A stretch of 64,000 bases of DNA from Chiloscyllium plagiosum (taxonomy: Eukaryota). Numbering within the stretch: the stretch's first letter is position 1; every line of letters begins with the position of its first letter. The notes under the pieces are model-generated. The model had not been told where the DNA came from and ran no database searches. It worked only from the letters and a program-made list of their open reading frames with translations. Positions 6,056 to 62,555 of the stretch are shown one piece after another. Both the position numbers and the translations under genes were made by a program. The stretch is from the NCBI RefSeq assembly GCF_004010195.1, contig NC_057717.1:74055424-74119423 (forward strand), read 5' to 3'.

Positions 6056-7341
6056 TTGAAATAAATCATTTAATGAACAAAAACTGGAGACTTCCTTTCT
6101 GGTTTTCTCTCTGTCTGTAACATTTGTTTCTTTTTTTTCTGCTGTTATTATTAGTCTATCTGTCTATATGCATCCGGGACTCTAATCTGTACCTGGAGGT
6201 TCAAACTATACATTTTAATTATTCTATTGAACTGTTTCTAAATTGCTGAAATTGTATCGCTCATAATAAATATTGATTCTCGTTAGGTGCAGACACCTTC
6301 TATGTTTCAATTAAGTTCTTTGACAACTCTCTGAGAGTCGTGTAGATTGGGGACTGCTGGAAATTTCTTTTAAATGCATGCATTTTTATGATGACTCCAG
6401 GAATCTGGCACTTAAAAATAAACTTGTAATCAAAACGGATCCTCATAGAAAGTACACCAGCTGATGATTTTTAAAATCGATTTTTAATGTGTGGTTTCAC
6501 AACATAAACACACTGACTGAATTTTTCATCTTTCAATTGTATTTGATAACATGTGAGCAAAGAAATAATATTGATACGAAAATTGAAACTGGACATTAGT
6601 TCACAAGTGAGCGTTCTGTTGAATTGCGAGGATGCATTTGCAATATTAATGCAGTCATGTATTGCTAATTTATGAACCTTGCATGGAAAAATATGATTAG
6701 AGCGTCATTTCTAAAAAGAATAATATAATATGCAATTCAGTATTTTCCTGTATTGTGATAGCATATTTTGAAGCATCCATGGCCTGAGAAGCAGAAATAA
6801 TTTTTTCAGTCCAATGACAGTTTCTTAGACACAACCTTTTAGGCGTTGCTAAATTCCGCATTACGTCTGCGTAATAGCTAAAATTTAATAGATAATTAGC
6901 AAACAAAGTTAAGCACTGCTCTATTTTTCCACCAATTAAGCAAACCTATGAATCATGGCATAGTTTTCCATAAGGTGAATATGTAGAAAGCACAAGGCAC
7001 CGTGTATTTACAAAAGTAAGGAAAAACAACAATGCAACGAGTTCATTAATATATATTCCATGTTGTAGGTTTAAGGAAGGCAAAAATTCTTATTTCAAAG
7101 CAATTCATCAGATTTATTTTTAATTGAAAGTGTACCATTAACTGTGTGCTAATTCAATTGTGAATTTGCAAGGAACTTAAATGTAATAGTAATGATATAT
7201 ATTTGACACTACTCAAAACCAAATCCAAATATTGACTGGTCTTTTATACAAAGGTGCAAACATAAACCCCCCAAAAAATGCATATCTGAATAATTATCTG
7301 CTCGTGTTTTTTTTTTGCTGGTAACAACGTTTATACTAATT

Positions 7342-7670
7342 GTCGAATCTCTACAGCGGCCATTCGGACCATTGATTCCACACTGGCTCTCTGAATAACA
7401 GCCCACCCACACCGATCCGAGTACACTGTCCCTTAAACACTGCTCCTCCATTGGCTAACCCACTTTACCTCCAAAACTCTGGATCGTTTGGACAAATTAG
7501 CATAGCTAATCCACCTAAGGACTTTTGGACAGTGCGAGGAAACCGGAGAATAAAGAGGAAATCCATTTTAAGATGGGGAGAACATGCAAATTCCACACAC
7601 TCAGTCACTCGAGGGCGGAATCAGATCCCCCTGTCACCGGCACTGTGAGGTAGCTGTGCTGACCATTCAG
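7342..7670 (-). mobile_element. HE1-type SINE
   Basis: TTTGGACAGTGCGAGGAAACCGGAG..GGGGAGAACATGCAAATTCCACAC core. Confidence 0.7.
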
Positions 7671-9254
7671 CAAATAATTTGAAATATGGTGTGATTGGCA
7701 TATTTCCCCGCTTTATAATGTCCTTCCATGAATTAGTATTGCAAATGCAACGTCGCTAGTAATGTGCTTAATTGTGTAACAGGCATCCAAAAATGAAGAC
7801 AAAATTTTCTTGTTCATGCTTGTATATTCCATCAAATCGACGGTACCAAATGCAAGTATTACATAAACTTTCTTCCTTTAAACAATTCAGGATACACGAA
7901 ATTCTCCTTTAATTCTTAGGGTAACTCTCTAAACATTGATTGCAACGATAGTTTGGAGAGAATGCAACCATTTATGATTTGAACAGTTGTTCAGTATTCT
8001 CTACTTGTTTTATTTATTTTGCATTATGTCAGGTTAATGAATATGTCGCTTTTCCTTAGTTTTCAGAAAAGAATATATTGAATATATGTGCCTCATGTTG
8101 TGTTCTACCACATTTACAATTAAGAATATTGTTGTGTCCTTTTTTTAACGATCCTCATTAATATAATCTAGAGGTTTCACCGCTTAGAAAAAGACTAGGC
8201 TATCTACCATTTGATGACAGCCTTTCTTTTCTAATTCTACAATTTTAACAAAAGATTTTCGATGATAATTTCAAGCAGGTGATAATGCTATCTGAGAGGA
8301 TCTCGATGACAATGTTTAATTTACATAATTAAACATTCATTTATCATAATCAGTTAAATCAACAGAAAAAAGCACCAACGATGTGTTGTGCATGCATTGA
8401 AATTGATAGCAATGAAAGCTGCCTTGTAATGAGACGATGGCTGAGTAATGCTATCATGAGACTATTGATTAATTAATGTTCTGGAGTCTCCATTGTTAAA
8501 TAACACCATGGCAGCTTCGCTCATACCGCTTAGAGACACGAAATCTGCCATTGTTACCTGGTCAGCCAGCATGTGACTCCAGACAGTAATATTGTGCATT
8601 GCCCTTGCGCTGGCGGGGAAAGTGATGCAGATATTTGGTGAATGAATGAGTAAGCAAATCAAAAATAATTCTATGCATAGAAAACTTCAATGTTTAAAAT
8701 ACGTTTAATAATTAGTTCATTTTCTAACTAAGGAAACGCCTATTGCACAGTGTATTTGGGTTTTATTCGAAATGATGCAGTTTTTCTTTTAAAATGTGAA
8801 ACATTACTAATAAATGCAAATTCAAGATGGAAAATAATTGCATGACCAATCCAGTCTCACGCATGTAATGTACAATATAAACATCGAAACTCTTCAGAGA
8901 TTCCCATCTAAATATAAATAAATAGACATGAAAAGTTTTGCTTTGTTCAGAGCTGCAGTTATTGTTGAATGCTGTTGACAGGAAAGGGCATCGTTGCAAA
9001 ACAATCAGTACAATAATATGTAATCATTTTCTAAAACTGTGACTGAGCAGAGAGATGAGCAAACCTAACATCTATAAAAATAAGCATATAGATAATGCAA
9101 GAAGTGCAGCAAGACCTGCTGCACATCAAGTGATAACAATCAGCAAATAATATTTAGATTTAATGCACTTATCGGATATAGTAAATTAAGAATGGATTTT
9201 AGAATCAAGAATGTCACAGAGAATCGTGCAAACAATTTCAAAGAATTATGAGGG

Positions 9255-9450
9255 TGCGGAAAGGGGCTAATCGACACATCGAGTAATGGCCAACTCTCCA
9301 CCAGCATCCAATCGAGATACAGTCCCCCATCTTATGTAACCTCCATTTCTTTGAACTGTGGGAGGAAACGGAAGCACCTGGCAGAAAACGACGCAGAAAT
9401 ACCAGAATGTTCAAACTCCACAGGGACAGTCACCCAATGCTGGAATGATG
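9255..9450 (-). mobile_element. HE1-type SINE fragment (absent from the homologous position of the intact gene copy)
   Basis: TGTGGGAGGAAACGGAAGCACC..AAACTCCACAGGGACAGTCACCCAA. Confidence 0.65.
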
Positions 9451-10329
9451 CACGTTTCGAAATGACATCACTATCTGAATGAGATTAATTGAACAGAAAA
9501 TTTACTCAACACAATGTTTAACAATCAGTAATTTGTGAAATATATCAAGTGTTTTTTCGAAAATGCTGTGAGAGGGAAGCATTTTATTCAAGCAAGTAGG
9601 AAATTTCACCTATTCTTCGTGAGACAAATGATAGTGTTTTGCAATAGATTGAAAGAGCAACATGAGTCACGTTATAATGTCTCGTCTAAAACAATATACA
9701 ATGGAACTTATATTATTCATGCAGTTTTGACTCTGATAGTGCTGAATATTAAATATTCGAAAATTCGCATGAACGTATGAGCTTCTGCATACAAGCCAGA
9801 TAATCGCTCTCTGAAGACCAGTTGATAGCTGATTAATCTAAGCTTTAAAAAAAAGCATGATGGATGCTGATTATAGCAATCTTCGAAACAAGTTACAGAA
9901 GTTTGAGCATTTTCAATAGAATCGGGTACACTTTTTCCAAGTTACAATTAATGTCTGTACATTCTAGACAAAGCAAACCTCAGAGTCAAACTATTTTCGC
10001 GCATACAAAAAAATCAACTAGGTAAGAATTCTAGCATTTGTATTATGCAGCATTTTCATTATTATATTGGACCGAAAAAGAGCCTTCTGAATATATTGAG
10101 AATTATATTCTTTACTCTGTTGACCTTTACAGGTATATCTCTGTGTGGACGATTATCATGTAAACAGGAAACCCAAAGCGATATGTTGCACTTTGCTGCA
10201 TTTTTTTCCATGCATCCTTTATTGTTTACTTTTGACAATTGAACACTTACCAAGTGTGTGCCTCCTGACTGAGCTTCATAAAACAAATAGTTAGTGTGAA
10301 AATGAAAGCCGCAGCCTCAACCTCCGACA

Positions 10330-11623
10330 ATTAACATTTTCCATCTATTTGTGCTGTTCCATCTTTTGACATTTCTTTTTGTACTGCTAATTGGGGTGGT
10401 AATTCCACGATAAAATTGTGGATAAATATGTTGAAGTGGGATGTTAAGCTGCTGTGTTCTGAAATATCAGTTTTGTGCTGAAGAAGCAAATTCTCAAAGT
10501 ACAAATAAAATGGAAGAGATTTTCATTATCCCTGGTCCATTTTGAGAAAACCAGAGGCTTGTCATTTTATGTTTTCCATCACTGCAGTAGAACAACGAAA
10601 AGCGTTTTTTTATCTTAATTTGACAGCAACGCTATATTTGGAATTATTCTGCATGCAAGTCTTGGTACCCTGATTACCAGAGCGTCAAAGTTTGACATGA
10701 TACTTCAAAAATCACAAAGAAGTATTATTTCATTTTTTCACTTTTTTTCATTCACATTTTCGTTGTCTAATTTTCTGTCTTTTGCAGCATTCCACATTAT
10801 AATTGACAATCGCCATAATCCTTCCTTGTTTTCCAGGCAGGAGTTACCGATTTTCTTTTCCTCCGTCTTTGCACCGCTTCTTTAATCTGTCAAGCATTTT
10901 CCCATTCGGTGCCTCTGGGAACGTTTTCCTGCAAACGCCATCCATCCAAACTGTTTTGGTGTGAAGTGCCATGAATTTGGGTTGCCACACGGGTTGGCTT
11001 CAAAGGGCAGTTGTTCATTGATACAAACAGCAACGGTGGCAATATATGAAACTCGTTTACATTGTCAGAAGAAGCGTTCTTCCACATCAAAGATTCTCAG
11101 CAAAAATTAACATTGAATCGTCTGTTTGTTCACTTGTAATTCAAGATGTGCAGAGAAATGAGTCGCGTCAATATTAGTGTGCAGCTCGGAAATTGTATGC
11201 ACCTCCTTTCATATTCGGAAATGACTCGAAATTGTTCATACCAGGTAAGAATTGAAAATCATTTAGTTCATCTACCCTAAACCCACGAACAATCAGTGAT
11301 TATTAATTGCAGATCCCCCAACTTTCTTCAGGTTCCTCAATCATAATAATATGTCCCAACCATTGAAAGATTTTTTTTCGTTGGAAAGCAGCCAATTGAT
11401 TTGCTTTGTGAAAATGCCAAATCAAATACACCTATTGTTGGTTGGAATGTTGCCACATGGAATGCCGTAGCTGGACAGCTACTGCGATAATGGACTGAAC
11501 TGAAGCATACAGCACTGTCAGCCTTATTAGAGCCCAATAGAAACTTGGAATCAATGTGCTGCATGTACGTCCATGTGTACTTGAAAAACACTTTTATCAA
11601 TGATAAAGTTTCACATAAGAGAG
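10330..11623 (+). pseudogene. Pseudogene paralogue of the VJ-C1 receptor (leader, VJ and C1 exons)
   Basis: Leader 10330-10372 has ATG->ATT and a lost donor. VJ exon 10906-11244 has the same 339-nt length, acceptor AG->AT and stops TGA 10962, TGA 11019 (the conserved Trp) and TAG 11175; it ends CAARKLYAPPFIFGNDSKLFIP|GTAAGA. An 87-nt intron leads to a frameshifted C1 exon 11332-11623. Confidence 0.9.
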
Positions 11624-11683
11624 GTAATTATTGATATCACTTTATTCATAGTTCAGATACTGGTGTGGGGTTTCTTGTTCGTG

Positions 11684-11902
11684 AGCTGAATATGTGTTGC
11701 TGGAAAAGCGCAGCAGGTCAGGCAGCATCCAAGGAGCAGGAGAATCGACGTTTCGGGCATGAGCCCTTCTTCAGGAATCTAAGCAGGGCTCATGCCCGAA
11801 ACGTCGATTCTCCTGCTCCTTGGATGCTGCCTGACCTGCTGCACTTTTCCAGCAACACATTTTCAACTTTGATCTCCAGCATCTGCAGTCCTCACTTTTT
11901 CC
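11684..11902. mobile_element. Non-autonomous Penelope terminal-repeat hairpin (inverted arms) with target-site-like duplication
   Basis: ATGTGTTGCTGGAAAAGCGCAGCAGG...GGGCATGAGCCC followed by its reverse complement. Flanked by TTTCTTGTTCGTG (11671-11683) and TTTCTTGGTCGTG (11903-11915). The same terminus occurs at 32303. Confidence 0.8.
11745..11775 (-). ncRNA. Minimal hammerhead ribozyme motif of the Penelope terminus
   Basis: Minus strand: cCUGAAGA-a-GGGC-ucau-GCCC-GAAA-cGUCga, i.e. CUGANGA core, 4-bp stem II, GAAA, and a GUC triplet. Confidence 0.6.
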
Positions 11903-12802
11903 TTTCTTGGTCGTGAAACGAGATCAGATATTTCAAATGCTTCTTTGCTTCATCAGTAGGTCTAATTATCTGCTAGTTTATATCTTCTATGTCGCTCACA
12001 ATGGTACTGTTTAGATTTTTCTGCTCCTTTTGCACTTGAGTATACCTCGATATGGAAAAATATGTAGAAATTTGAAACTTTGTCGCCTAAGTTGTAAAAT
12101 CCATTTTTTTTGCGACTTTCTCTCTTTTTGTCTCAGAAAGCAGTCTGCATTTTATGCGAATTAAATCTCAGAAATACATTGTTTAGCCAGTGTAGTCTTT
12201 CTTGTTCCATGCAAATTTGCTCCTAAGCTTATGAAACTTCTTACGATCAGTATATCTATATTTGCTGAAAGAACGTTTGCATTGAATTCCTTCAACCACA
12301 AACCTCCCAAAACATAACACACCTCTGACCATTTTTGAGATAGTGATGCCCTTTTTGCTTGGCATGACGTCAGGTTCACAAGAAATGGATGAAAGAAAGC
12401 CCAACTGGATGTATTGCAGCTATTTTTTCTGTCACAATGAGTCATATTCAGAAAAGGACTTGAGGCAGGCCAGATGAGAAGCTAAATATCAGGCCAAAGC
12501 ACAGACATTATACAATTACATATTGTTACGTTAAGAATCATTCATTCAAGAAGGCTAGGTTGAATTTGGATTCGATTCCAATAGACACCTGGAAAGTTAT
12601 CCTCGTTAGACAATTGAATTAGCATTCATAAAGCAAAGAATCAAACAATACATCAGATGTCTACTTCCCATTCCATTATTCCATTATTTCAAGGTCATGT
12701 TATTCTGTAATCGTTAATTATTTTCATGAGTAAATTTCTCTCAGATTATTAATTCAGTTTTCTCTCCACAGAGTGTATGAGTTTGTGTATGTGTGTCTGT
12801 GT

Positions 12803-13227
12803 GAGAGAGAGAGAGTGAGAGAGAGAATGTGAGTGTTTGTGTGTATGCACGCATGCGCATGTTTCTGCCTCTCTTTCTCTTTCATATTTTCTGGCTCAAT
12901 CTAGCTTTCTGTCATTCTAACAGTCTCTTGTTGTTTATTTACTCTAGTTGTAGGTGACCCTGCCAAATTTTTTTGTGTGAGTTTCCATTAGTTTTCTTTA
13001 ATAGGACATTGGCTTAGAGAGAGAGAGAGAGAGAGAGAGTGTGAGTGTTTGTGTGTATGCGCGCATGAGCATGTTTCTGCCTCTCTTTCTCTTTCATATT
13101 TTCTGGCTCAATCTAGCTTTCTGTCGTTCTAATAGTCTCTTGTTGTTTATTTACTCTAGTTGTAGGTGACCCTGCCAATTTTTTTGTGTGCGTTTCCATT
13201 AGTTTTCTTTAATAGGACATTGGCTTA
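12803..13227. repeat. ~212-bp tandem duplication beginning in a (GA)n microsatellite
   Basis: GTGAGTGTTTGTGTGTATGC..GGACATTGGCTT at 12829 and at 13041. Confidence 0.9.
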
Positions 13228-13265
13228 TCTTATGCATTTTTAAGAACTGTGCATTTCCTTTTCAG

Positions 13266-13393
13266 CAATGGGATATCCACCATATGTTTTAAACTTTTAT
13301 GGGAGTTCGCTGTTGCTGATTTTTCTCATTATTTTAAGTGTTACAACAGTGTTACAACAGGATAGAACTACAGGAATCAACATTCAGATATAG
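13266..13393 (+). pseudogene. Putative transmembrane exon of the upstream VJ-C1 pseudogene
   Basis: Acceptor TTTCCTTTTCAG in phase 1 (compatible with the C1 donor) reads AMGYPPYVLNFYGSSLLLIFLIILSVTTVLQQ...*. Hydrophobic stretch, about 1.6 kb after the C1 exon; contains an 11-nt tandem duplication. Confidence 0.5.
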
Positions 13394-13714
13394 AATGTAT
13401 TCAGGTGCTTTGAATCCATTGGCATCTACATCGCTGTATCTGTCTTACTGTGCTGCTTACTTTTTAGATGTTAATTAACCTGGTGGTAGTGAAATTCGAT
13501 AAACAATTAGCTTTCTCTTTCTAACAGGGAATTGGAAAACTGATGCCAGATCACGTGAAAAGAAACAAGCAGTATACACTTGACTTTTTTTAATGTTGTC
13601 AATATTTGTGATTTCCTTTCAGTGGTTTTTATAATTGACCGTTTAATGTTTATGATTACAGCAAAGTACTGACATGTTAAAAGTGCAAAATGCAAAAATG
13701 CATTGTTAACCACT

Positions 13715-14760
13715 TTCTTTTTCCAATTCATTCAAGTGAGTGTCTCTGGCTGTGGAAACATTTATTTCCCATGAGTAATTACCTTTGAAAAATCGGCAAT
13801 AAACTGCGTTTCTTGAGCTGATGAATTTCATTTAGTTTGTGAAATTCCACAATGCTATTATAGAGATTGTTCCAAGATGTTGAACGAGCGACATTCAATT
13901 TTGACTTGGAAATGAAAATTGCAAGTAGCCATGATTCCATGTCTGTGTTGCTTATGTTTATCCAAATGTTAGCGGATTTGGATTTGGAAGGTGCTGCTTG
14001 TAGCCCTTTGGTGAACTCTTACAGTGGTCCTTGTAGGTCGTACACATTTCTGTTACTGAGCATCAGTAGTGGAAGAACTGAATAGCGGTTGCTCAGGTGC
14101 TTACAACACGGGCAGCTTTGTGCCTGGACGGTGTCAACCATAGAAAGAATTGTTGCAACGAATTTCGGCAAAAGTGGAGTATTCTATATCACGTTGTTTA
14201 ATTGTGTCTTGTATACAGTAGACAGGATTTTGCAAGTGGAAGGTGAGTTACTCGATGCAAGACCACTCGGTTCCCAATACGTACAGTTTCTGTTCTTAGC
14301 ATTGGTAAACCCCGGCATGCTGAAAATTGGGTGGTGGCTTCAGTAATGGTGATTCCGTGAATTTCAAGGAGGAATGGTTAGCTTCGTTCTTTCTAGAGGT
14401 CATTTATGCCTGATGTTTGTGCGGCACATAAGTTACTTGACACCTTTCAAACCAAACATAAACACCATGGACCTGCTGAATTTGTGAATGGATTACCTGT
14501 ATATCTGAGAATTCTCAAATGTTGTTGAATACTGTTTAGTGATCAGCAAACATTCCCACTTCTGATTTCATGATGGCCAGAAAATAAATGATGAACCCTA
14601 GCTAAAAGTGGTTTGGCCAAGAGGAACACTCTAAATAATTTCTTCAAAGATATCCTTCAGCTGAGATGAACGACTTCCAGGCACCACAATCATTGCCCTT
14701 GTGCAAGGTACGACACCAAATTGCGGAGAAATTCCTCCACTGATTCTATTGACTCAGTTC
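13715..14760 (-). mobile_element. Ancient non-LTR retrotransposon 3' part (CR1/L2-group RT)
   Basis: Minus strand SEVGMFADH (decayed FADD motif) near 14540; 3' end resembles the SINE tail at 19490. Confidence 0.55.
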
Positions 14761-14879
14761 CTTTTTTTGGGGGTGGTGGAGGAGGGGGTCGGTGTGTTCT
14801 TGCTTGCCAGGTACTGTCAAATGTGGGCTTCATTTCACGGACTGTCAGTTACACCACATGGGGGAATTCATCCCTTTCT

Positions 14880-16770
14880 ATCGGTAGGTAATGATGTTTT
14901 GAAGAGTGTCTACATTACAGAAAAGAAGGTGCTTGACGTCTTAAAACGCATAAAGTAGATAAAACCCCCAGACCTGACGAAATGTACGCCAGGACCTTGT
15001 GACAAGCGAGGGAGGAAACTGGAGAACTCCTGGAAGAGATATTTGCATCATTGACAGCGACGGATTAAGCATCTGAAGATTGAAGGGTGCTTAATAAGAC
15101 CATAAGACCAAAAGACATAGGAGTGGAAGTAAATGATGGATTCTAGAATTTTACCAACAACCGAGGTTAAGCTGATTGGCCTATAATTTTCCATCTTTTG
15201 CCTTGATCCTTTCTTGAACAATGCTGTGCCAATATTTAAGGAAGGCTGCAGGGAAATGGCTGGGAACTACAGATGTATCAGCCAAATGCTTGTGGTGGAT
15301 AAGTTGTTCGAGGGGATTCTGAGAAATAGGATCTAAAGGCATTTGGTGAAGTAAAAACTCATTTGGGATAGTTATTATGGCTTTGTAGGTGCGAAATTGT
15401 GTCTCACGAATTTGATTTTTTTGTGAAGAAGTGACGAAGAAAGTAAATGAGGGCAGTGCAATAGGTGTTGTCTACAGGGATTTTAGCAAGGCCTTTGACA
15501 AGGTACTACACATAGGTTTTTCAGTAAGTTTAAATCTCATGGAATCCAGGGAGAGCTAGCCAAATGAATACAAAATTGGCTTGATGGTAGAAGACAGAGG
15601 GTCGTGGTAGAGGGTTGTTCAGACTGGAGGCCTGTGATCAGCGTTCTTCCACAAGGATCGTGCTGGGTCCACTATTATTCGAAATATATATGGAATCCAG
15701 GGAGAGCTAGCCAAATGAATACAAAATTGGCTTGATGGTAGAAGACAGAGGGTCGTGGTAGAGGGTTGTTTTTCAGATTGGAGGCCTGTGATCAGCGTTC
15801 TTCCACAAGGATCGTGCTGGGTCCACTATTATTCGAAATATTTATGATTTAAAAGAGAATTTAGGGGATATGGTTAATACTTTTTCTGAATGACACCAAG
15901 ATTAGTGGTATAATGGAGAGTGAAGAAGGGTATCGGGAATGCAGAGAGATCTTGATCAACTTGGCAGCGTGCTGAGGACGATTAATTGAAATAAATTCAA
16001 AGTGTTGCATTTTTGTAAGGCAACCCAGGGAAGGAAATACACAGTCAATGTTAGAGCCCTGGGGCGTGATATAGAACAGACAGATCCAGGTATACAGGTT
16101 CATAGCTTCTTGAAAATTGAGTCGTAAGTAGACAGGGCGGTGAAGAAGGCTTTGGACACGCTAGCTTTCATCCGTCAGAGAATTGAGTATAGGAGTTGGG
16201 AAGTCTTATTGCAGCTGCACATGACTTTGCTGAGATCACATTTGGAGGACTGTGTGCAATTCTGGTCGCCTACTTTAGAAAGGAAATCATTAAACTCGGA
16301 ATACTGCAAAAAAAGATTTATTAGGATGCTACCTGGACAGGAAGCATTGAGTTACAAGGAGAGGTTGGATCGTTTGGTACTTTTCTCACTGCAGCATGGA
16401 ACAATGAAGGGTGACCTAATAGTGGTCGATAAAATCGTGAGAGGTATAGATAAGGTAGATAACCAACAGCATTTCCCCATAATAGGTGAGGTTCAAACTC
16501 GATGGCATAGATTTGACGTGAGAGGGAAGAAAGATAAAAAGAGTCCAGAGGGTCAATTAATTCACAGAGGGTGATGAGTGCCTGAAACGGGCTGCCAGAT
16601 GTTGACGTGCAAGTGAATACAATTTCATCATTTAAGAAACATTTGGGCAGATATATGGATGGAATAAGTATGGAGGGAAATGCATTAAATGCAAGCAGAT
16701 GTGGCTAGATGAATTTTGGAAACTGGGCAGCATAAGCAAGTTGGGCTGAAGGGCCTGGCCCCATGTCGAA
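14880..16770 (+). mobile_element. CR1 LINE ORF2 (RT) fragment
   Basis: DFSKAFDKV, PQGS-like, LEDCVQFWSP motifs and 3' UTR; internal ~151-bp tandem duplication. Confidence 0.85.
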
Positions 16771-17219
16771 TAAAGCAAAACTGCAGAATAATGCTTCCAT
16801 GTAATGATAACCGGATAATGATACTCGAACAGTTGAGATGATTTTTTAATTATTGGTATAAAGTAAAGAAAGGCATGACCTAGTTGTGATGATTAAAATA
16901 AACAATTATTGTTGGAGTTACAAAGGGACAAACTGCATCTTTACAGTTTTTGGTACAATGATGTATAAACTTATATTTGAAGCAAGAATTTTAGAGGTTA
17001 CATCAAGAAGAAGCGGTTTAACGAAAAGCGTCAAAGTGAATTGTAGCAAACATATGCCCAGAAAATCGTGCATGTCTCGAATGAATTGGGACTGGACCGA
17101 AAGCAAAGAAGAATAATGTGAAAGCTACCAAAAGGAGTAAATCAGTGGTGCCCCTACACAAGTATAGAAACTGCAGGGGACGTCAGGAAAGCAATTAGGA
17201 GAGAACTCTAGAATTCCTA

Positions 17220-17495
17220 TCGAGTTCATACTGCCCCTGCGAAAAGCATGTAATCCAACACCAACCCCTAAATTCTCCCTGTAACCTTGTGTTTCCCATT
17301 GTTAACAAATATAGCATGAACGTTAGTGGACACTATGGGCAATTTAGCATCACCAAACCACCTCATCTACATACCTTTGTTATGTGGGAGAAAACCAGAG
17401 CACCTGGAGCAAACCCACTCAGACATGGGGAGAATGTAAAAACTCCGTGGCGCTGAGTGACTGCAGTGCTATCCATTGAGGCACGTCATCACCCA
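17220..17495 (-). mobile_element. HE1-type SINE
   Basis: GGGCAATTTAGCAT..TGTGGGAGAAAACCAGAGCACC..GGGGAGAATG. Confidence 0.65.
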
Positions 17496-18309
17496 AGAAT
17501 AGAGAAGGCTTTTTTAAAAAGAAACCTGATAGTCCAGATTTTGGTGGATTTCAAGATATTTTACTAATATGTAAAACGAAAGAGAAGAAACAAAAGAGTA
17601 GGCCAATGGAGAGACCAAGAAAAAAATCTTTACGTGGAGCCAGAGAACCTCAGTTACTAGTGTTGGGTTCACTCTTGTTGGTGATAAACGATATGAATCA
17701 CCACCAATAATGGTAAGGATTTCAAATTTGAACTTAGGCTGTTGTCAGGAGCAATGAGTATATGTAGACTTTTATTAACCACAAAATGACTTTTCATTTT
17801 AAAATAACACAAAAAAATGGCTTCAAGTTATGATTTGACACCGTGAACCTGCATTTCTGCTTTGCTGAGTCAGCTGAATTAGAAGACAAAGCAGACAATG
17901 GAGTCTTCATAAAATGAATTATAAGACATTAACTGACCACTCGAACTAACCTTGAACGGCAAGTATTACATGATGATTTACATAAGATAAGAACCATTTC
18001 CCAGGAAATATCATTAGATTAGCCTGCTGTCAATCTTGTCACCTTATTACATTTGATTGATCTCTTCTTGTAACTAAGGCTGTGCTATCTCTTAAAACAA
18101 ACCTATAAATAATGTTTAATTTTCGAATGCACTTGCGCAATTTCACCACGGAACACAGAAGCTTTAACCTCTGTGTTGTTGAATAAAACTGCACCAGTCT
18201 GCCTTATTTAATTCAACTGTTAACCTTGCTTTATGCAAATCGCATTCCTGTTGATTGTTTTGACCAATCGTGAAACCAAGAGGTCCCTCCTGGGATCAAG
18301 ATTTTCAAT

Positions 18310-19040
18310 GGATGGTTGTTAAGTACGTTCTTGGATGACACAAAGATTGGCAGAGTGATAGACAGTGAGGAAGAAAATCTTAGGTCACTGATAAATATAT
18401 AAAGATTGATCAGAAGGGTTGTTCAATAAGAAATGGAGTTTGAGTGGTCAATAAATAGCAGAACTCTGAAAATGAGAGGAATAGAGAAATCTTGGATCCT
18501 TCACCACCGATCGCTGACGGTCGCAACACAGATTAACAGGACATTTACTAAGACATACGACATGCTTGACTTTATTAGGCGAGACAGAGATTATAAGAAC
18601 AAGGACATTATTTTCGAGCTGAATAGTACTTTGGTTAGGCCACAGCTGGGAGCATTTTGTATTGTTCTGCTCACCACACTATAATAAAGATGTCATTGCA
18701 TTGGAGAGGGTGGAGCAGAAATTTCCGACGGCGCTTCCTGTGATGGCGAGCTTTAGCTATCATGGGAGTCTATATTAGCATGGGCTATTTCGTGGAATCA
18801 GATATAATTGAAGGGGGTCCTGCCACTGGTCTATATGATTATGAGGGACATGGACAGGGTGGATAGTGAGCAGCTGTTCCATTGAATTGACAACTCAATA
18901 AAAAAAAGACGGGGAGAGAATTTATACGTGTAACTCAGGAGGTTTAGAAGTCATTTGAGGGAAGAGAATCATAGAGACTGTGACAGAGTTCTGGGTATGC
19001 TGGAATAGTGTAGTTGAGGCGAGTAATCACACAACATTAT
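18310..19040 (+). mobile_element. Old CR1 LINE fragment
   Basis: LDDTKIG, MEF, TLVRPQLG motifs. Confidence 0.7.
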
Positions 19041-19489
19041 GGTCCCTGTTTTCTTCTGCAGACTGTCGATGTTCACTTGGCATTCAGTGCAAAACGAACA
19101 TTCTGATGGAAAAGTGAAGAAAGTATTCATATTCATATGCCGATTGGTGAAATGTTTCTAAGTCTGAGTCGATTTTTTTATGTTCAATCAGAAAATTTCC
19201 TGCGTGGTATGTTTATTCAAGATGTCATCTGAATACATTTTAGATAAAATTTCAATTTGAGCCTTCAGCAGCTTTTGAGGAATTGAGGACCAAGTTGCTA
19301 CAATCTTCCTGTGGAATATATTACCTTTGCAGGCATCATATCACTCAGTTCTTTTTAAGATGTTGCCCATTGTATCCTAATCTCTACGGTAAATTTTGTA
19401 ACTTATTCAGATTTACTTCACAACAACATGGCATAATTACGACAAGCCAACTGAGTTTTTTTTAGCACACAGGTTCGTAGATATCTTTT

Positions 19490-19840
19490 CCTTATTCAAT
19501 CACAGAATGACGGCGTCGGTGGTTGGGCCAGTATTTATTGCCTATCCCTAATTGCCCAGAGGGAAGTTGCGAGTCAACCACATTTCTGCTGGTTTGATGT
19601 CACTTTTAGGCCAGACCACGAAAGGATAGCAGTTTCCTTCTCACTGCAATATGTGAACCAGATGGGTTATTTTTCAATAATAGAGAATGGATTCACGACC
19701 ATGATGACACTCTTAATTGCAGACTTTTGTTGCATTCAAATTCCACCATCATTTGCGGCAGAATTTGAGCTCCTGCCCTCAAAGCATTTCCTGTTGTCAG
19801 GACTAACAGCCAAGTGAGAATATCGCTAGGCTGTCCCCTC
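19490..19840 (-). mobile_element. SacSINE1/DeuSINE-like ancient SINE
   Basis: ATTTATTGCCTATCCCTAATTGCCC..GAGTCAACCACATT..GTGAACCAGATGGG, matching my recollection of this family. Degenerate plus-strand copies at ~8470-8650 and ~59130-59390. Confidence 0.6.
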
Positions 19841-22050
19841 GGCTACACCCTTGCTAGTGAAGGTGGAGGAAGCTGATATGACAGCAACGTTTAAAAGGCA
19901 TTTGGATGGGCTATTGAACTAGAAGAGATTAGCGGGCAGGTGGGATTAGTTTAGAATGGCACCATGCTCGGCGCAGACACGGTGGACCAAAGGGCCGATT
20001 CCTGTTCTATACTTTCTTATATGTAATTATTCAGCCTCAGTTGTTCCAAGGAGAACACACCTACCTATCAAATACACAATCATTGTTATATTCCCTTTCC
20101 TAACTTCAAACTCTGAAAGCTACTCCATACCATAATCAGAGCAAATTATCTCCTCTCCTTGTAATATGCGAAAAGGAGAAAAGATAAACTCCAGTTCCCC
20201 ACACCTGTCTAAATCATCTGTTGTGCGCCACGTGGACTTCTGTTCCTCAACACGCCTCAAATTCCATCCCTGTATTGAAATTACATACCATTCTACATAT
20301 CTTGCTCTATTTCCTAGAATAATTTGCAAAGTTTCTAAATTTCATTCCATTTCACATTTGTTTTCTTTACCACAAGAAACATACACTTTATATCTTCCTG
20401 TTGATGTTACTGTTTGTTACTATCAAACTTGGAGCTCCATTCCAGCTTGAAAACTCATTCTTCTTATCTCTCATTTGATTTTAGAACATTAATAAACATT
20501 TCTAATGACAAGTGGTGTTCTCTCAAATTAAGCTCTAAGTTACACAGCAACTTAGTGATTGATGAAAATTTCTTCCGAAACTCATTGAATGTGGGTCCAA
20601 ACTTGCACCATCTCTGAATTGCAACGGAAGTTTTGCCTTTGATCATATTGCTGCTGAGAACTTGCCTAGAAGTCTTGTTAAAATTAGTTCTGACAATATA
20701 TTCGGATCATATAGCAAATTTCCAGTTCTTCATTACGTTTAATCAAGTTAAGAAAAAGATCTTTCCGTATTATATCTATGTACATTCTCTCAGATTGTTG
20801 CATGCCTTCGTAGATGAAGTGATACAAACATTATTCCAGAATTAATTTGATTTTTATAACTGAAATTGAATTTGAAAAAAAAAATGGCGTTTAATCATGT
20901 TAGTGTGCTGAGGTGTTTGGTTATCATTCATGAAGTTTCAGCAGAACCATCACAAACTGTATTTTAGTGACAACAGATTAACAACAACTGGAATTGATAC
21001 AGTTAGAAATTGTTCAGGAAAGTTGTAGATGGGTGGTACATTCCAACTCTATCAATACCTTCTCATAAATAAACACATATAAAATTCTACTCAATATGTT
21101 TATGTGTCTAAGTTAATTTGCTATTTACACGTTTAGATTGTTTTTTTTTTTTGTTTTGCTTTCGCCAGTGAGGATTACGTAATTCATATGCTTTTTACAA
21201 TAATCCAATGGACGATTGACAAATATTATGCAGCATACCTTGCAATATGTTGAGTTTGTTGTTTGAACTAAACTTAATGTTAATCTGTAAGCACTTCGTG
21301 CACAGTTTTGATGCCGAATATTGCATGACCACAGAATTAACGTACACCACCTATAAGTGAAGTTACAGTCAGTACTAGACTCTTTGCGATTCCCTGCTCA
21401 GTTGTAGTGAGTGAACAACCTCCTCCAAAAGTCCCCCTGAATCACTTTTCCATGCCGCTGTCTGCTGGATGTTTTTCCACCTTTTAAGCATCGAGTTCTC
21501 AACAACCCCCTGCTCACTGTGGTGATCGAGCTGCCATCTCCAAGTATTCTCCTGAGTCACTTCCCAATATTACACTCTTGGATGCTCATCCTTCTGTTAA
21601 ACGCCGAGTCCCTCGTGATCCCTTGCTCAGTTGTGGTGAGCGTGCCAACTTCTCCAAGAATCTGCCTGACTACGATCATCTTTGGATACTGTTCCTTCAC
21701 CACGCCCTCTGCTGTGTGTGGAATAGCATCTCTGGAGATTCTCCTCCGTCATTTTTCACTACTGTTATCTGCAAGCATTCTTCTCCGTCTGCTTTCAACG
21801 TTGCCCGTGTTGAAAACTCTTCCACTTTCACCCAGAATCCCTCTCAGTCACTTCTCAGCACCACCATATATCTGAGCCCTTGATTCTGTTGAGTACGAGC
21901 TCTTCTACGATTCTTTATTCATTTGCAATTACAGAGCTGCCTTCTCCCAGAATTCTCCTCCGTTACTATTCTCCTCCATTGCATGCATTTCCTTCTGTCG
22001 ACGAGCAGCTTCTCTGTGATTCCATTCCTATTTGCAGTGAATGAGCAGAC

Positions 22051-22858
22051 ATCTCCCAGACGCCACTCTGGTTTATGCACTTTCTCCTGTTCAGAATCTG
22101 ATCGTCTGCGATCCAGTCTCAGTTGTGCTGACCAAGTGTGGGTCACTCAGAATCTGCCTTCATCTGTTTTCACTTCCACACTCTGTTTTACGTTCTTACT
22201 CTTTTTGACAACCGTGTCCTCTGTGATCATCTTCAATTGCAGTCTGTAAACTGACTTCTCCAAGCATCCTCCTCAGTCATTTATAATTGTCGCTCTCTGT
22301 GCAGTGGTGTTCCACAGTTAAATAATGGATCCTTTTCCATTACCCATATTAATGACATAAGATGATTTCTCGATGAATCTTCCTCGATCGATTTTCTCTA
22401 CTGCCACTTTTGGCTACAGTAACAGCCATTGAGCCATAAGTTCTTAGCAATCCCTTCTTTTGTAAATCTCCCAGACGCCACTCTGGTTTATGCACTTTCT
22501 CCTGTTCAGAATCTGATCGTCTGCGATCCAGTCTCAGTTGTGCTGACCAAGTGTGGGTCACTCAGAATCTGCCTTCGTCTGTTTTCACTTCCACACTCTG
22601 TTTTACGTTCTTACTCTTTTTGACAATCATCTTCAATTGCAGTCGGTGAATTGACTTCTCCAAGCATCCTCCTCAGTCATTTATAATTTATATGCAGTGG
22701 TATTCCACAGTTAAATAATGGATCCTTTTCCATTGCCCATATTAATGACATAAGATGATTTATCGATGAATCTTCCTCGATCGATTTTCTCTACTGCCAC
22801 TTTTGGCTACAGTAACAGCCATTGAGCACTAAGTTCTCAGCAATCCCTTCTTTTGTAA
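22051..22858. repeat. Near-identical ~415-bp tandem duplication within the array
   Basis: 22051-22465 repeated at 22466-22858 with few substitutions and two small deletions. Confidence 0.9.
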
Positions 22859-32302: not shown

Positions 32303-34430
32303 AGAGCTGAAAATGTGTTGCTGGAAAAGCGCAGCAGGTCAGGCAGCATCCAAGGTTGCTGAGTTCGAGGGATTTGACTGAGACAAGGTGGGGGGAGGGG
32401 GAATGAGGAAACTGGAGAAATCTGAGTTCATTCCTTGTGGTTGGAGGGTTCCCAGGCAGAAGATGAGGCGCTCTTCCTCCGACTGTCGTGTTGCCATGGT
32501 CTGGCGATGGAGGAGTCCAAGGACCTGCATGTCCTTGGTGGAGTGCCTGCATGTCCTTGGTGGAGTGGGAGGGGGAGTTAAAGTGTTGGGCTACAGGGTG
32601 GTTGGGTTGTTTGGTCCGGGTGTCCCAGAGGTGTTCTCTGAAATGTTCCGCAAGTAGGCGGCCTGTCTCCTCAATATAGAGGAGGCCACATCGGGTGCAG
32701 CAGATGCAATAGATGATGTGTGTGTTTTGCAGGTGAATTTGTGGCGGATATCGAAGTGTCCTTTGGGGCCTTGGAGGGAAGTAAGGGGGGAGGTGTGGGC
32801 GCAAGTTTTGCATTTCTTGCGGTTGCAGTGGAAGGTGCCGGGAGTGGAGGTTGGGTTGGTGGGGGGTGTGGACCTGACGAGGGAGTCACGGAGGGAGTGG
32901 TCTTTTCGGAACGCTGATAGGGGAGGGGAGGGAAATATATCCCTGGTGGTGGGGTCCGTTTGGAGGCGGCAGAAATGACGGCGGATGATACGTTGTACAT
33001 GGAGGTTGGTGGGGTGATAGGTGAGGACCAGTGGGGTTCTGTCCTGGTGGTGGTTGGAGGGGCGGGGCTCAAGAGCGGAGGAGCGGAAAGTGGAAGAGAT
33101 GCGGTGGAGGGCATCGTCGACTACGTCTGGCGGGAAATTGCGGTCCTTGAAGAAGGAGGTCATCTGGGTTGTACAGTTTTGGAACTGGTCCTCCTGGGAG
33201 CAGATGCGGCGGAGACGAAGGAATTGGGAATATGGGATGGCGTTTTTACAGGGGGCAGGGTGGGAGGAGGTGTAGTCTAGGTAGCTGTGGGAGTCGGTCG
33301 GTTTATAGTAAATGTCCGTGTCGATTCAGTCACCCGAGATAGACATAGAAAGGTCTAGGAAGGGGAGGGAGGACTCTGAGACGGTCCAGGTGAATTGAAG
33401 GTCGGGGTGGAAGGTGTTGCTAAAGTGGATGAACTGTTCAACCTCCTCGTGGGAGCACGAGGCAGCGCCGATACAGTCATCGATGGAGCTGGGAAAAAAG
33501 ACTGTTCCACATATCCTACGAAGAGGCAGGCATAGCTCGGGCCCATTCGGGTGCCCATGGCTACTCCTTGGGTTTGGAGGAAGTGGGAGGATTGGAAAGA
33601 GAAGTTGTTCAGGGTGAGGACCAGTTCAGTCAGTCGAAGGAGGGTATCAGTAGAAGGGTACTGGTTGGTACGGCGGGAAAGGAAGAAGCGGAGGGCTTTA
33701 AGTCCTTCGTGATGGGGGATGAAGGTGTACAGGGACTGGATGTCCATGGTGAAGAGAAGGCGTTGGGGACCGGGGAAGCGAAAATCATGGAGGAGGTGGA
33801 GGGCTTGGGTGGTGTCCCGAACGTAGGTGGGGAGTTCTTGGACTAAGGGGGACAGGACCGTGTCGAGGTATGCAGAGATGAGTTCGGTGGGGCAGGAGCA
33901 GGCCGAGACAATGGGTCGGCTGGGGCATTCAGGTTTGTGGATTTTGGGTAGGAGGTAGAAACGGACGGTGCGGGACTATGAGGTTGGAGGTGNNNNNNNN
34001 NNNNNNNNNNNNNNNNNNNNNNNNNNNNNNNNNNNNNNNNNNNNNNNNNNNNNNNNNNNNNNNNNNNNNNNNNNNNNNNNNNNNNNNNNNNNNNNNNNNN
34101 NNNNNNNNNNNNNNNNNNNNNNNNNNNNNNNNNNNNNNNNNNNNNNNNNNNNNNNNNNNNNNNNNNNNNNNNNNNNNNNNNNNNNNNNNNNNNNNNNNNN
34201 NNNNNNNNNNNNNCACGGGGTGTCCAGGTGGATGGGGTGTGTTGGAGGCGGGAGAATGTGTCGTCAGAGGGTGGGCGAGAATCTTGGTTGAAGAAGTAGG
34301 CGCGGAGGCGAAGGCGGCGGAAGAATTGTTTGATGTCACGCCGCATGTTGAACTCGTTGATCCGAGAGCGTAGGGTAATGAAGGTGAGACCTCTGCTGAG
34401 GACTGATCTTTCATCCTCAGAGAGGGGTAG
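32303..34430 (-). mobile_element. Penelope-like retroelement (RT + GIY-YIG endonuclease), relatively young, frameshifted
   Basis: ORF pieces LSRGLTF..FFRRLRLRAYFF; MDIQSLYTFIPH..NNFSF..QTQGVAMGTRMGPSYACLF (PLE RT); IYCICCTRCGLLYIEETGRLLAEHFREHL (GIY-YIG). Terminal sequence at 32303-32354. Confidence 0.92.
33993..34213. other. Assembly gap (221 N)
   Basis: Run of n characters inside the Penelope element. Confidence 1.
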
Positions 34431-58071: not shown

Positions 58072-60651
58072 AAACACTTTAACATTGGCTGCATTGCTAT
58101 GAGAAATAATACCACAACAAAGCATAACTGCATAATTTCTAAGTGAGATGTTCTGAAGTTTTTTTTTGTATTTTGATCAATGAATGCTACTACGTTTATA
58201 TACTGAAAAACAGAGTTAGTTCTTCCCATTCAATAACACTTGCTCAGATATAGCATCGTAGTTGGGGCTGATTCCGGTACTCACATATAAATAATCGAAG
58301 GGCTGAATCCCCTACACCCTATTTTGATTCCTAGATCTTGATGTCCCTATAATGGATCAAATGTAATAGCAAATTAGGAAACAAAGTCAAAAGTTACACT
58401 ATTTTTCTTAATTAAAAATGCAAGTTGAAGCTGTTTTCCTTTAATTCAAGATGTCGAAAACAAAACAATCGCTTCAAAGCTATGCCTTTGATTTCTCTTC
58501 AATTGAAATTATGTACCCGTGAACAAATACTTTCACACCTAACGTTTCTTTTAAACCACAATCAAGATGTATGTAATTCACTCTTTAATTCTGAAAGTAT
58601 TCCTACAAGTATTGTTTGTACTATCCAAAATGAAAAAGTGTGCACACATTTATAAGTACAATATGTGCTAACCTTTCTCAATTTGTTCTTTTTTTCTGTG
58701 CAGGGGTGTTCAAATAAGCAATATGTTAAGGACTTATGCCACATAGGGTGATTTACCAACTTTGCTGCTTTGAATATTGTTTTGCTTTTTAAGCAATGTT
58801 CTGTAACACAATCTGGATTTTTCATAGAATAGAAAATGAAGAAGGTTGCGATATTATTCTACCATTCGATTATGGTCTCCATCCTATTTTCCCATCGCCA
58901 CGTAACTTTAACAAACGCCTATTAGGAGCAATTTCAAGTTCACACCATGCAGGAGGAAATAAATTCTGGGGGTCACTAAGACATTGCCTCATTCCCTTTA
59001 TAAAAAATGCATTCCCCATAAACATGAAGGGACAAAGGGAAAAATGCACTAATCGTGTCTGTGTAAATTTAGAAGTCTCAGGGATGAGAGACAATTTCCT
59101 AATGATATTATTGCCAAACTCTCAGTCCATGAATGTTCTGGAGATTCGTGTTTGAATCCGTCACTGGCAAGTAGTGGAACTGACCTGAATAAATATTTAG
59201 CCAACACAATCCATTGCCACTTGTTGGATAATCCAGCTCGTTCATTGATGACGTTTTGCGAAGGGAGGTCTGCCGTACTTATCTCAGCTGGCCAGCACGT
59301 GAACACCAGACCCTTGGAAAAATGTTTGATTCTCCCCTGGGATGTAGATGCTGCCCAGACAAGTGATACCCACATCCTATAAAAACATAAAGAAACTCAT
59401 ACAATTCTCCTAATCTGAACATGAAACGTTCATATATTTTTGCAATCTAGTTCCTTTTGAAAGTAAGGGGTGCATCTATTAATCGGTGCATTTAAGCTTT
59501 ATTTGAAACAGTAAAATCCTTCTCTTTAAAATGTGGAACATTACAACTAAATGCAAATTTGAACAGTCCAGCTCATTCATTAAAACATACATACATCAAC
59601 TGAAATATTTCAATGAGCTCTCTCAAAATGAAAGCAAATATACATTGAATCAGAACTTCTTTTATTCGGTGCTCGTAGTTTTGTCGATTCAAGTTGAAAG
59701 GACAGGAACCTGTTGGAAACCATGCACTGCAAGGATGTCTGACTATTTTCTAAACATGTAGCTGAGCAGAGTTGAGCAAATCCAAGATCACTGAGCCTTA
59801 GTATGTAATTAAGGAAAAGTGTGCAAAGAGAATAGTTGTACATAAAATGATGATCAGCTCGGGTAGCATTTAGGTTTAATGCTCAACTACAGGCCAATGT
59901 TAACCATGGCGTGTAGTTAATCAAAATTAAGATTTATAATCATGGTCAACACAAAGCATCATACTATCAATGTGGCATTAAAATGGCATCACTGCCTGAA
60001 TGCGATAAATTGAGCAATATGTTTTTACAGCTGAAGTTCGAACTAACTATAATTTGTGAAAACTCAAGATTTTCATGAGACAGAAAACGTTTGTACAAAC
60101 ACTCGGGAAATTTCACGCGCTTTTGGCCAAAGTAATGTAGAGTGGTTTTTTGTAACAACCTATAAGTATAAAATGGTGTCTCCTTGTTATGCATCACCAA
60201 AAAACTAACCTGAAAGGTATGTTGTTCCTCCTGTGCTGGCATTAGCAATGTTTTCCGGATTTTTGAGTGCCTGAAAAGGTACCTGAAACTTTAACCTTCT
60301 GCATCAGAAGCCAGATGTCCACCCACTGAGTATGAGTTGATATGCTATGAATGAAGCCAAACCATCCATGAGATTAGATTCATTAGTAGAAAGAAGTTAC
60401 TAATCTTTTAACTTTTATTATACAATCTAACACAATTTTGCTCTTGCAAGTAATGGCTGCATATGTAAGAGCGAGAAAACTTCAAAATCAAAATATGACC
60501 GCATATAAGATGCACTGAAAATGCTAAAATCAGCATTATGCAACATTTTCATTTTTATGTTGGACCGGAAACCGCCTCTCAACATATTGAGAATTATATT
60601 TTTCTCTCTATCTGTTGGCCTTTGTATATACATTTGTGTGTGGACAAAGCG

Positions 60652-60666
60652 TGTAAACAGGAAACC
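60652..60666 (+). promoter_or_regulatory. Conserved forkhead+ETS-like motif TGTAAACAGGAAACC upstream of the leader exon
   Basis: Identical 15-mer at 10159-10173 in the pseudogene copy, about 170-180 nt upstream of the (former) ATG in both, while the flanks are diverged. Confidence 0.4.
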
Positions 60667-60830
60667 AAAAGCGTTCATTTGCACTGTGTTCTAGTTTCCA
60701 TGCAGCTATTTTTTAAATGCAGCAAATAATCTCCACAGCAGTGCACTTCACAAGTTGGTGTCTCCTGATCGATATTCACGAAAGCAAAGAGTTATTGTGA
60801 AACTGACAACAACAACCTCAGCATCTAAAA

Positions 60831-60873
60831 ATGAACGTTTTCACTCGATGTGCACTGTTCCATCTTTTGCCAG
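60831..60873 (+). CDS. Exon 1: signal peptide (leader) of the VJ-C1 gene
   Basis: AAAATG start, 14 codons + 1 nt (MNVFTRCALFHLLP), strong donor CAG|GTGAGA. Phase 1 matches the V exon acceptor, and a homologous decayed exon is present at 10330. Confidence 0.8.
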
Positions 60874-62217: not shown

Positions 62218-62555
62218 GTAACGATTAAATGTCACTTCAATTTTTGTTGTAAGGTCGAACTATAGCTGCATTATTAGCAATACGAAATGTTATATTCCAA
62301 AAGCTGCCTTGTTTAATTATCTTACAACTTGTAACTTTCATTCACAAATACTTCTGATGTTTAGCTTTCTATATCATTGACATTTGTTTGCGCTTGACAT
62401 TCTTCTGTAGTGGAGGATATGAATTAATTTGAAATTTTGCCGACTGAGGTTGGGAAATGCAATTTTCATTTTGTGACTTTAGTCTTACTGCCTTTGAATA
62501 GTATCTGTATTTCATGGCATTTGCAAAACATTTGAAAATACTATTTAGGTCAGTA

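What the first reader, a model, noticed from the sequence alone, without database searches (positions are those of the whole stretch)
8470..12100. Tandem duplication of the whole receptor unit: birth-and-death gene cluster
Seen: ~8470-12100 aligns by eye with ~59130-62400 in the same orientation. Shared parts are an old SINE remnant (8470/59130), upstream non-coding blocks (8780/59520, 9030/59750, 9461/59981, 10045/60538), the leader, a 339-nt VJ exon, an 87/90-nt intron and the C1 exon. The upstream copy has lost its ATG, a donor and an acceptor, and carries three V-exon stops plus C1 frameshifts. Inference: the gene belongs to a multicopy tandem family, with likely more members beyond the window.
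Basis: seen in the sequence. Interest (0 to 1): 0.7.

Follow-up and report, generated by a model that had tools for sequence, protein, structure and literature searches.

The report
Shark non-rearranging immune receptor gene cluster
The window holds one dead and one intact copy from a bamboo-shark cluster of 13 genes shaped like a single T-cell-receptor chain but never rearranged, which likely work as a diversified set of inborn off-switch receptors on immune cells and have relatives from rays to turtles.

Summary
The duplication is real and larger than reported. Window ~6,900-21,100 is collinear with ~58,350 to about 16 kb past the window's end, non-coding DNA included (58-75% identity, above all shuffles). 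The two copies are sisters (99% bootstrap) in a cluster of 13 V-exon copies over 0.77 Mb of G000:C8: 8 have open frames and 5 are broken. The full gene has six exons: leader, pre-joined VJ, C1, transmembrane, two tail exons ending in TxYAxL. A close relative splices leader-V-C1-TM. There are no recombination signals, and a tree rejects origin from the shark light chain tested. The family groups with VJ-C1-TM proteins of lungfish, sturgeon, amphibians and reptiles, beside a second ancient subfamily. This best fits PRARP/VJC1 non-rearranging receptors; those papers were not held, so membership is not shown directly. Paralogues pair with whale-shark copies, which fits birth-and-death evolution. 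Inhibitory signalling and pairing are inferred. One copy has lost its C1 domain, in three carpet sharks.

The parts
7861..10329 (+). Upstream non-coding DNA of the dead copy (c09), collinear with 58537-60830; an unshared repeat is inserted near 9337-9446
   Evidence: blocks 59420-60540 are shared with this copy only, within 1.06 Mb
8493..8584 (.).
10159..10171 (+). Conserved promoter element TGTAAACAGGAAA (forkhead plus ETS-like site; label recalled)
   Evidence: core AAACAGGAAA in 12 of 12 aligned promoters; the 13-mer occurs 10 times in 1.46 Mb
10330..10372 (+). c09 leader exon, dead: ATG is ATT, donor lost
10906..11244 (+). c09 pre-joined VJ exon, 339 nt, acceptor lost, three stops
11332..11623 (+). 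c09 C1 exon, frameshifted (net -11 nt)
11683..11903 (.). Younger repeat inserted after the C1 exon in c09 only; not part of the duplicated unit
13528..13571 (+). c09 first tail exon (approximate end)
19062..19106 (+). c09 last exon; the motif tyrosine is now aspartate
58537..60830 (+). Upstream non-coding DNA of the intact copy (c10), with the promoter element at 60652-60664
60831..60873 (+). c10 leader exon (43 nt, split leader)
   Evidence: leader joined to V in transcript-type contigs X1 and X2; matches the start of RefSeq model P0003
61486..61824 (+). c10 pre-joined VJ exon, open, YYC and FGxG in one exon
   Evidence: Pfam V-set 55.6 bits
61915..62217 (+). c10 C1 exon (alternative acceptor at 61912). 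TM, tail-1 and tail-2 exons lie past the window at G000:C8:74123358-74123471, 74123612-74123649 and 74127727-74127771
   Evidence: Pfam C1-set 32.6 bits, cut-off 21

Best explanation
The two stretches are a dead and an intact sister copy of a six-exon gene in a 13-copy tandem cluster of non-rearranging VJ-C1 membrane proteins, likely of the PRARP/VJC1 kind, that likely act as inborn inhibitory receptors on immune cells. Shown: the duplication, exon structure, copy count, lesions, splicing in a close relative, absence of recombination signals, and kinship with bony-vertebrate VJ-C1-TM proteins. Inferred: whole genes were copied with their flanks by unequal crossing-over, and this pair long ago (about 0.45 changes per non-coding site). 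Each surviving copy binds its own ligand through diverging V loops. The tail tyrosine is phosphorylated and recruits an SH2 phosphatase or adaptor. The cysteine before the membrane makes a disulfide-linked dimer. Copies that lose use decay, as c09 did soon after it arose.
For: Collinear non-coding DNA. c09+c10 99%. 8 of 13 copies open, with GT-AG sites. Leader-V-C1 joined in 2 of 2 transcript-type contigs of a ~96% identical relative, C1-TM in 1 of 2. Tail motif TxYAxL in 7 of 8 intact copies, GLYAQL in c12, and a cysteine at the start of the TM exon in 8 of 8. A YxxL-type tail motif in 27 of the 30 shark and ray records that passed the TM filter. No Lys or Arg in the TM core of the intact copies. 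V framework dN/dS 0.30 against 0.66 in the loops (28 non-independent pairs). 0 of 8 genes carry a recombination signal, while the scan found signals in 3 of 5 light-chain stretches on C39. VJ-C1-TM proteins from sharks to turtles lie on one side of a 98/94 branch from Ig, TCR and UrIg-like rows; shark and bony subfamily A V domains group at 99/93. Several copies per species, on contigs of equal length, in whale, horn and basking shark records and in turtles.
Against: No PRARP sequence or paper was in hand; no hit carried that name and no bird protein was among the 120 of 252 listed hits. Synteny could not be tested. One tyrosine motif is weak for phosphatase recruitment, and TxYxxL lies between the ITIM and ITSM consensus (recalled). 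The loops show no dN/dS above 1. The c05 TM segment failed the hydropathy filter. In the V+C tree the shark-bony A link is only 91/84. The tissue and cell type of expression are unknown. c13 rests on one frameshift and a missing last exon near assembly gaps.
Confidence: 0.72

Rival explanations
1. The cluster is the variable half of a germline two-chain receptor: each subfamily-A chain pairs with a near-invariant subfamily-B chain as alpha pairs with beta in a T-cell receptor, so copy number replaces rearrangement. This can hold together with the best explanation.
For: This genome has 8 intact A copies and only 2 B copies found. A and B are both older than the shark-bony fish split and share contigs of equal length in horn shark, zebra shark, manta and turtle records. 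The complex model supports binding of c10 V-C1 to a zebra-shark B V-C1: score 0.69, best of 3 controls 0.00, runs agree in at least 85% of contacts, partner pLDDT 81; the mark was reached by 51 of 78 solved and 2 of 108 mismatched pairs.
Against: The pass very likely reflects likeness to solved Fab and TCR structures. The controls were unrelated non-Ig proteins, antibodies are untested in that calibration, the partner came from another species, and no A-A homodimer control was run. In this assembly A and B lie on different contigs, and turtles expanded B too. c12 lacks C1. Co-expression is unknown.
Confidence: 0.2
2. The genes descend from a germline-joined antibody light-chain cluster that gained membrane and tail exons within sharks.
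For: VJ-C1 layout, split leader, best solved-structure hits are light chains; a fragment of the family sits among light-chain clusters on C39, some of them pre-joined.
Against: Forcing subfamily A together with the shark light chain P0165 is rejected (p-AU 8.5e-5; only that isotype was tested). 17 kappa-type V exons of this genome group elsewhere. Relatives occur in lungfish, sturgeon, amphibians and reptiles. No octamer in 12 of 12 promoters. The V-C intron is about 90 nt.
Confidence: 0.04
3. The family is a separate non-rearranging VJ-C1-TM lineage that works the same way but is not orthologous to chicken PRARP.
For: No direct sequence or synteny test was possible; earlier notes in this genome describe other VJ-C1 receptor families (unchecked).
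Against: Architecture, tail motif, two ancient subfamilies and species range match my recall of PRARP; a Xenopus member exists.
Confidence: 0.2
4. The second copy is an assembly artefact or an uncollapsed haplotype.
For: The assembly has gaps (59,898 N in 1.46 Mb).
Against: The copies differ at about 30% of sites; other DNA runs hold the dead copy at 98-100% where they cover it.
Confidence: 0.01

Closest known systems
[quoted passage not shown] 2019, PMID 30770416) and Xenopus VJC1 genes (Ohta et al. 2019, PMID 31492741). Neither paper held; titles and one-line mentions seen in PMC10751288 and PMC11599192; content recalled
   Same: Non-rearranging single-exon VJ; V-C1 in non-avian members; membrane protein with one ITIM/ITSM-like motif; a pair of gene types; present in bony fish, amphibians and reptiles (all recalled).
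   Different: Described as a pair in chicken (recalled); here 13 tandem copies with 5 broken. The C1-less form arose separately in carpet sharks. I saw no account of a shark cluster. No direct sequence comparison was possible.
UrIg and UrIg2 (PMC12227049: abstract, introduction, results and part 1 of the discussion read)
   Same: Elasmobranch, non-rearranging VJ in one exon, split leader, C1-set constant domains.
   Different: UrIg has 3 and UrIg2 up to 9-11 C1 domains; UrIg is secreted; both were described as single genes expressed in liver or gill. Here one C1, a tyrosine tail, many copies, and relatives in bony vertebrates.
NITR (teleost novel immune-type receptors; passage in PMC7916673)
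   Same: Tandem multigene complex of non-rearranging receptors with joined VJ, evolving by birth and death, inhibitory and activating forms.
   Different: NITR's second domain is an I-type domain (recalled), not C1. No intact activating form was found among the 8 copies here.
Germline-joined shark Ig light-chain clusters
   Same: Leader, joined VJ and one C1 per unit; many units.
   Different: No TM or tail in light chains; tree separates them; no octamer here.

Membership tests
PRARP/VJC1 | VJ domain in one exon with a J-like FGxG strand, no recombination signals | tested here: met
   339-342 nt exons; FGxG in 6 of 8 intact copies (c05 MGNG, c03 lost it); 0 of 8 with signals
PRARP/VJC1 | One C1-set domain after V (non-avian members; recalled) | tested here: met
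   Pfam C1-set above cut-off for c10; full C1 exon in 7 of 8 intact copies, reduced to 42 nt in c12
PRARP/VJC1 | Transmembrane segment and a cytoplasmic ITIM/ITSM-like motif (recalled) | tested here: met
   c05 TM weak, c12 motif off-consensus
PRARP/VJC1 | Homologues in bony fish, amphibians and reptiles (recalled) | tested here: met
   sturgeon, bichir, paddlefish, lungfish, coelacanth, caecilian, newt, Xenopus, turtles, lizards, alligator
PRARP/VJC1 | Clade with chicken PRARP1/2 | not testable with these tools
   no named PRARP sequence retrieved; no bird among the 120 of 252 hits shown
PRARP/VJC1 | Conserved synteny with the PRARP region | tested here: inconclusive
   no intact flanking gene recognised among long unique ORFs within about 0.32 Mb left and 0.37 Mb right; UFC1 and COPA markers lie on unplaced contigs
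PRARP/VJC1 | Lymphocyte expression, surface display, disulfide-linked dimers (recalled) | not testable with these tools
   spliced contigs exist but tissue is not on record; dimer only modelled
UrIg/UrIg2 | Three or more C1 domains | tested here: not met
   one C1 exon per gene, then TM
Ig light chain (germline-joined) | V and C group with a light-chain isotype; ends after C; octamer promoter | tested here: not met
   four further exons after C are three here (TM, two tail exons)
NITR | V plus I-type second domain (recalled) | tested here: not met
   second domain is C1-set only
Paired activating/inhibitory receptor family | Intact members with a charged TM residue and no inhibitory motif | tested here: not met
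   0 of 8 intact copies have TM Lys or Arg; dead copy c08 has a mid-TM Arg. Holds for this cluster only.
Birth-and-death multigene family | Live and dead copies of mixed age; cross-species clustering of paralogues | tested here: met

The most novel reading that the evidence does not exclude
Sharks keep a germline-encoded two-chain receptor: a tandem array of diversified A chains pairs with a near-invariant B chain in T-cell-receptor geometry and signals through tail tyrosines. It would be a living model of the receptor that existed before RAG split the VJ exon, with diversity made by gene copying, and a closer match to the TCR chain layout (V-C1-Cys-TM) than UrIg2.
Probability: 0.15. Interest if true: 0.8.

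Novelty: new member of a known kind. Interest (0 to 1): 0.45.

Why it matters
The tandem duplication alone is ordinary. Its value is that it exposes a family which databases label as 'uncharacterized' or misname as Ig or TCR chains. It has the exact domain layout proposed for the pre-RAG antigen-receptor precursor and has been expanded in sharks and turtles. It gives a defined set of 8 genes with which to test whether cartilaginous fish have an NITR/KIR-like inborn receptor complex, and whether two non-rearranging chains pair like a T-cell receptor. Searches for a description found none on a shark cluster, but the three key J Immunol papers were not held, so novelty in print is not established.

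Tried and rejected
Expression in the window's species: no RNA holder listed; single-cell runs X7 and X8 gave 0 reads at 2-6% sampling, which is no test; X1 and X2 laid nothing on the dead copy, no proof of silence. Synteny: a PBX gene lies 11 Mb away on C8 and its paralogue type could be judged only from recall; 1q23-type markers are unplaced; flanks showed only repeats and pseudogene pieces by eye, with no Pfam scan. Bird PRARP sequences not recovered; the Atlas gave only generic V/C1 clusters. Positive selection: not shown. A first V-only tree lost 17 of 18 genome rows to a parsing fault and was redone. In the DNA tree the C39 row kept its intron and c12 lacked C1. The tree label 'IgL_lambda' for P0165 and 'UrIglike' for P0122/P0129 are my guesses; the C39 light chains mix split and joined V exons, so the isotype is open. 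Papers not held: PMID 30770416, PMC6761025, PMC10530332, 10.1007/s00251-021-01232-7. PMC10751288: passages and the supplement list seen, the supplement not opened; it may hold synteny tables that bear on this. PMC11599192, PMC7916673, PMC7677710: passages only; the last was not used. No earlier findings by place or sequence.
Full report
Observation. A self-comparison of the window finds same-strand matches between ~8,700-11,550 and ~59,450-62,140, and a gapped alignment joins them into one collinear run. All 11 non-coding blocks tested scored above the best of 30-100 composition-preserving shuffles, at 58-75% identity. The homology starts near 6,870/58,350 and runs to about 21,100 in the upstream copy and about 16 kb past the window's end in the downstream copy, so the unit is at least 14 kb. 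The blocks at 59,420-60,540 match only the upstream copy in 1.06 Mb. The '8470/59130' block is the weakest (z 7) and has 4 dispersed hits on other contigs: an old repeat, class untested.

The gene. The downstream copy (c10) has six exons: leader 60,831-60,873, VJ 61,486-61,824, C1 61,915-62,217, and past the window a TM exon and two tail exons. They give a 293-residue protein ending in TVYADL. Pfam calls V-set and C1-set above cut-off. The RefSeq model P0003 is 99% identical over V, is labelled Chiloscyllium plagiosum, and skips the TM exon. Two transcript-type contigs from a ~96% identical relative join leader to V and V to C1 (skipping 87 or 90 nt), and one runs on into the TM exon; their RNA status is the tool's guess, but the GT-AG joints show splicing.

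The dead copy (c09). It keeps all six exons. It has lost the ATG, the leader donor, the V acceptor and the TM donor, has three V stops and frameshifts in C1 and TM, and the tail tyrosine is changed. Other DNA runs confirm the lesions they cover. Its V exon shows 35 replacement and 13 silent changes, as expected without selection, against 13 and 13 in c10. It therefore likely died early. Non-coding divergence of about 0.42-0.49 per site makes the duplication old; I did not date it.

The cluster. The window is G000:C8:74,055,424-74,119,423. Profile searches of 1.46 Mb find 13 V exons and 13 C1 exons or remnants between 73.577 and 74.349 Mb, on average 64 kb apart. c01-c05, c07, c10 and c12 are open with canonical sites. 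c06, c08, c09, c11 and c13 are broken; c13 is the least certain. Orphan TM, tail and leader exons mark further lost units. A genome-wide search scored 150 of 302 candidates and found close V matches only here and once on C39. The DNA tree pairs c09 with c10 (99) and groups c01-c04 (100). Intact V domains are 45-75% identical. c04 and c01 each pair with a whale-shark paralogue. V framework is under purifying selection (0.30) and the loops less so (0.66), without proof of positive selection. All 12 promoters aligned share AAACAGGAAA 150-180 nt before the ATG, and none has an octamer.

Family. Homologues occur in several copies in whale, horn and basking sharks and in rays, and a V-domain fragment in a chimaera. 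A profile search of 1.84 billion representatives returned single V-C1-TM proteins of lungfish, coelacanth, sturgeon, bichir, paddlefish, amphibians and reptiles (names for 30 of the 150 listed hits). None of those 30 was a mammal, bird or teleost. On V+C1 these lie on one side of a 98/94 branch from Ig, TCR and UrIg-like rows and split into subfamily A (this cluster), subfamily B (99/96) and a lungfish-coelacanth group. On V alone, shark and bony A group at 99/93 and A+B at 96/84, apart from 17 kappa-type V exons and one TCR-like V of this genome. A clade of A with the shark light chain tested is rejected. Recombination signals are absent from 8 of 8 genes and present in 3 of 5 light-chain controls. 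G000 has two B copies, on C39 among light-chain clusters and beside a frameshifted A fragment.

How it likely works. A type I membrane protein with an uncharged TM, a cysteine before it and one TxYAxL motif on its own last exon is best read as a dimeric inhibitory receptor whose paralogues differ in ligand. This follows from established ITIM/ITSM biology (recalled) and is untested. No intact activating form exists in this cluster, though dead c08 has a TM arginine. Notes from other shark genomes claim activating members (unchecked). A model of c10 with a B chain passes (0.69 against 0.00), but likeness to solved Fab and TCR structures can explain that, so it is a lead only.

Comparison. The features match my recall of PRARP (Fu 2019) and VJC1 (Ohta 2019), whose names I saw only in passages and reference lists. 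Four architectural and range tests are met; the clade and synteny tests could not be done. It is not UrIg/UrIg2 (one C1), not a light chain and not NITR, though it is organised like NITR.

Verdict. Observation confirmed, interpretation supported and extended. A new, expanded member of a known kind; machine gene models exist but are misnamed, and other notes of this scan met what is probably the same family. Interest 0.45.

Noticed in passing
G000:C8:74248613-74257421 (-), copy c12: The C1 exon has an internal deletion and a new acceptor leaves a 42-nt in-frame mini-exon, giving a V-only receptor. The same form is in epaulette shark (P0010) and zebra shark (P0052) models, so it is old and likely functional. 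It parallels the C1 loss recalled for bird PRARP.
   Followed up: partly
G000:C39:27.70-27.87 Mb (L151-L167): Two subfamily-B VJ-C1 genes and one frameshifted A fragment lie among light-chain clusters that mix split (with signals) and pre-joined V exons. TM and tail exons were found only for the second B copy.
   Followed up: partly
G000:C8 versus C39: A and B share a contig, judged by equal contig length, in horn shark, zebra shark, manta and turtle records, several of them only 8-25 Mb long. Here A sits in a gene-poor part of a 108-Mb contig, away from B: a lineage-specific move or a scaffolding effect.
   Followed up: partly
G000:C8:74014701-74014814, dead copy c08: The TM exon reads with an arginine in mid-membrane and the next donor looks lost; possibly a former activating member.
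   Followed up: no
window 10159-10171 and 60652-60664: A 13-nt promoter element kept in live and dead copies alike; resembles a forkhead-ETS composite site (recalled).
   Followed up: partly
G000:C8:73687835-73688173, copy c03: Open frame but the FGxG strand reads FRKE; the same in a sister-species model (P0023), so it is not an error. It may change V pairing.
   Followed up: no
G000:C8:74174697-74176595, 74236267-74236309, ~73809700, ~73917000: Orphan TM, tail, leader and promoter remnants with no V exon nearby: traces of deleted units or of assembly gaps.
   Followed up: partly
window 12804-13227, 15539-15846, 22051-22858, 40595-40786: Adjacent near-identical direct duplications of 96-415 nt (92-97%), possibly scaffolding overlaps; a 221-nt N gap at 33993-34213.
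   Followed up: no
G000:C8:73517028-73518093, 74156264-74156683, 74232852-74233283, L188:5591-6019: Decayed zinc-finger, two GPCR-like and one KDM4-like processed fragments in and beside the cluster (judged by eye).
   Followed up: no
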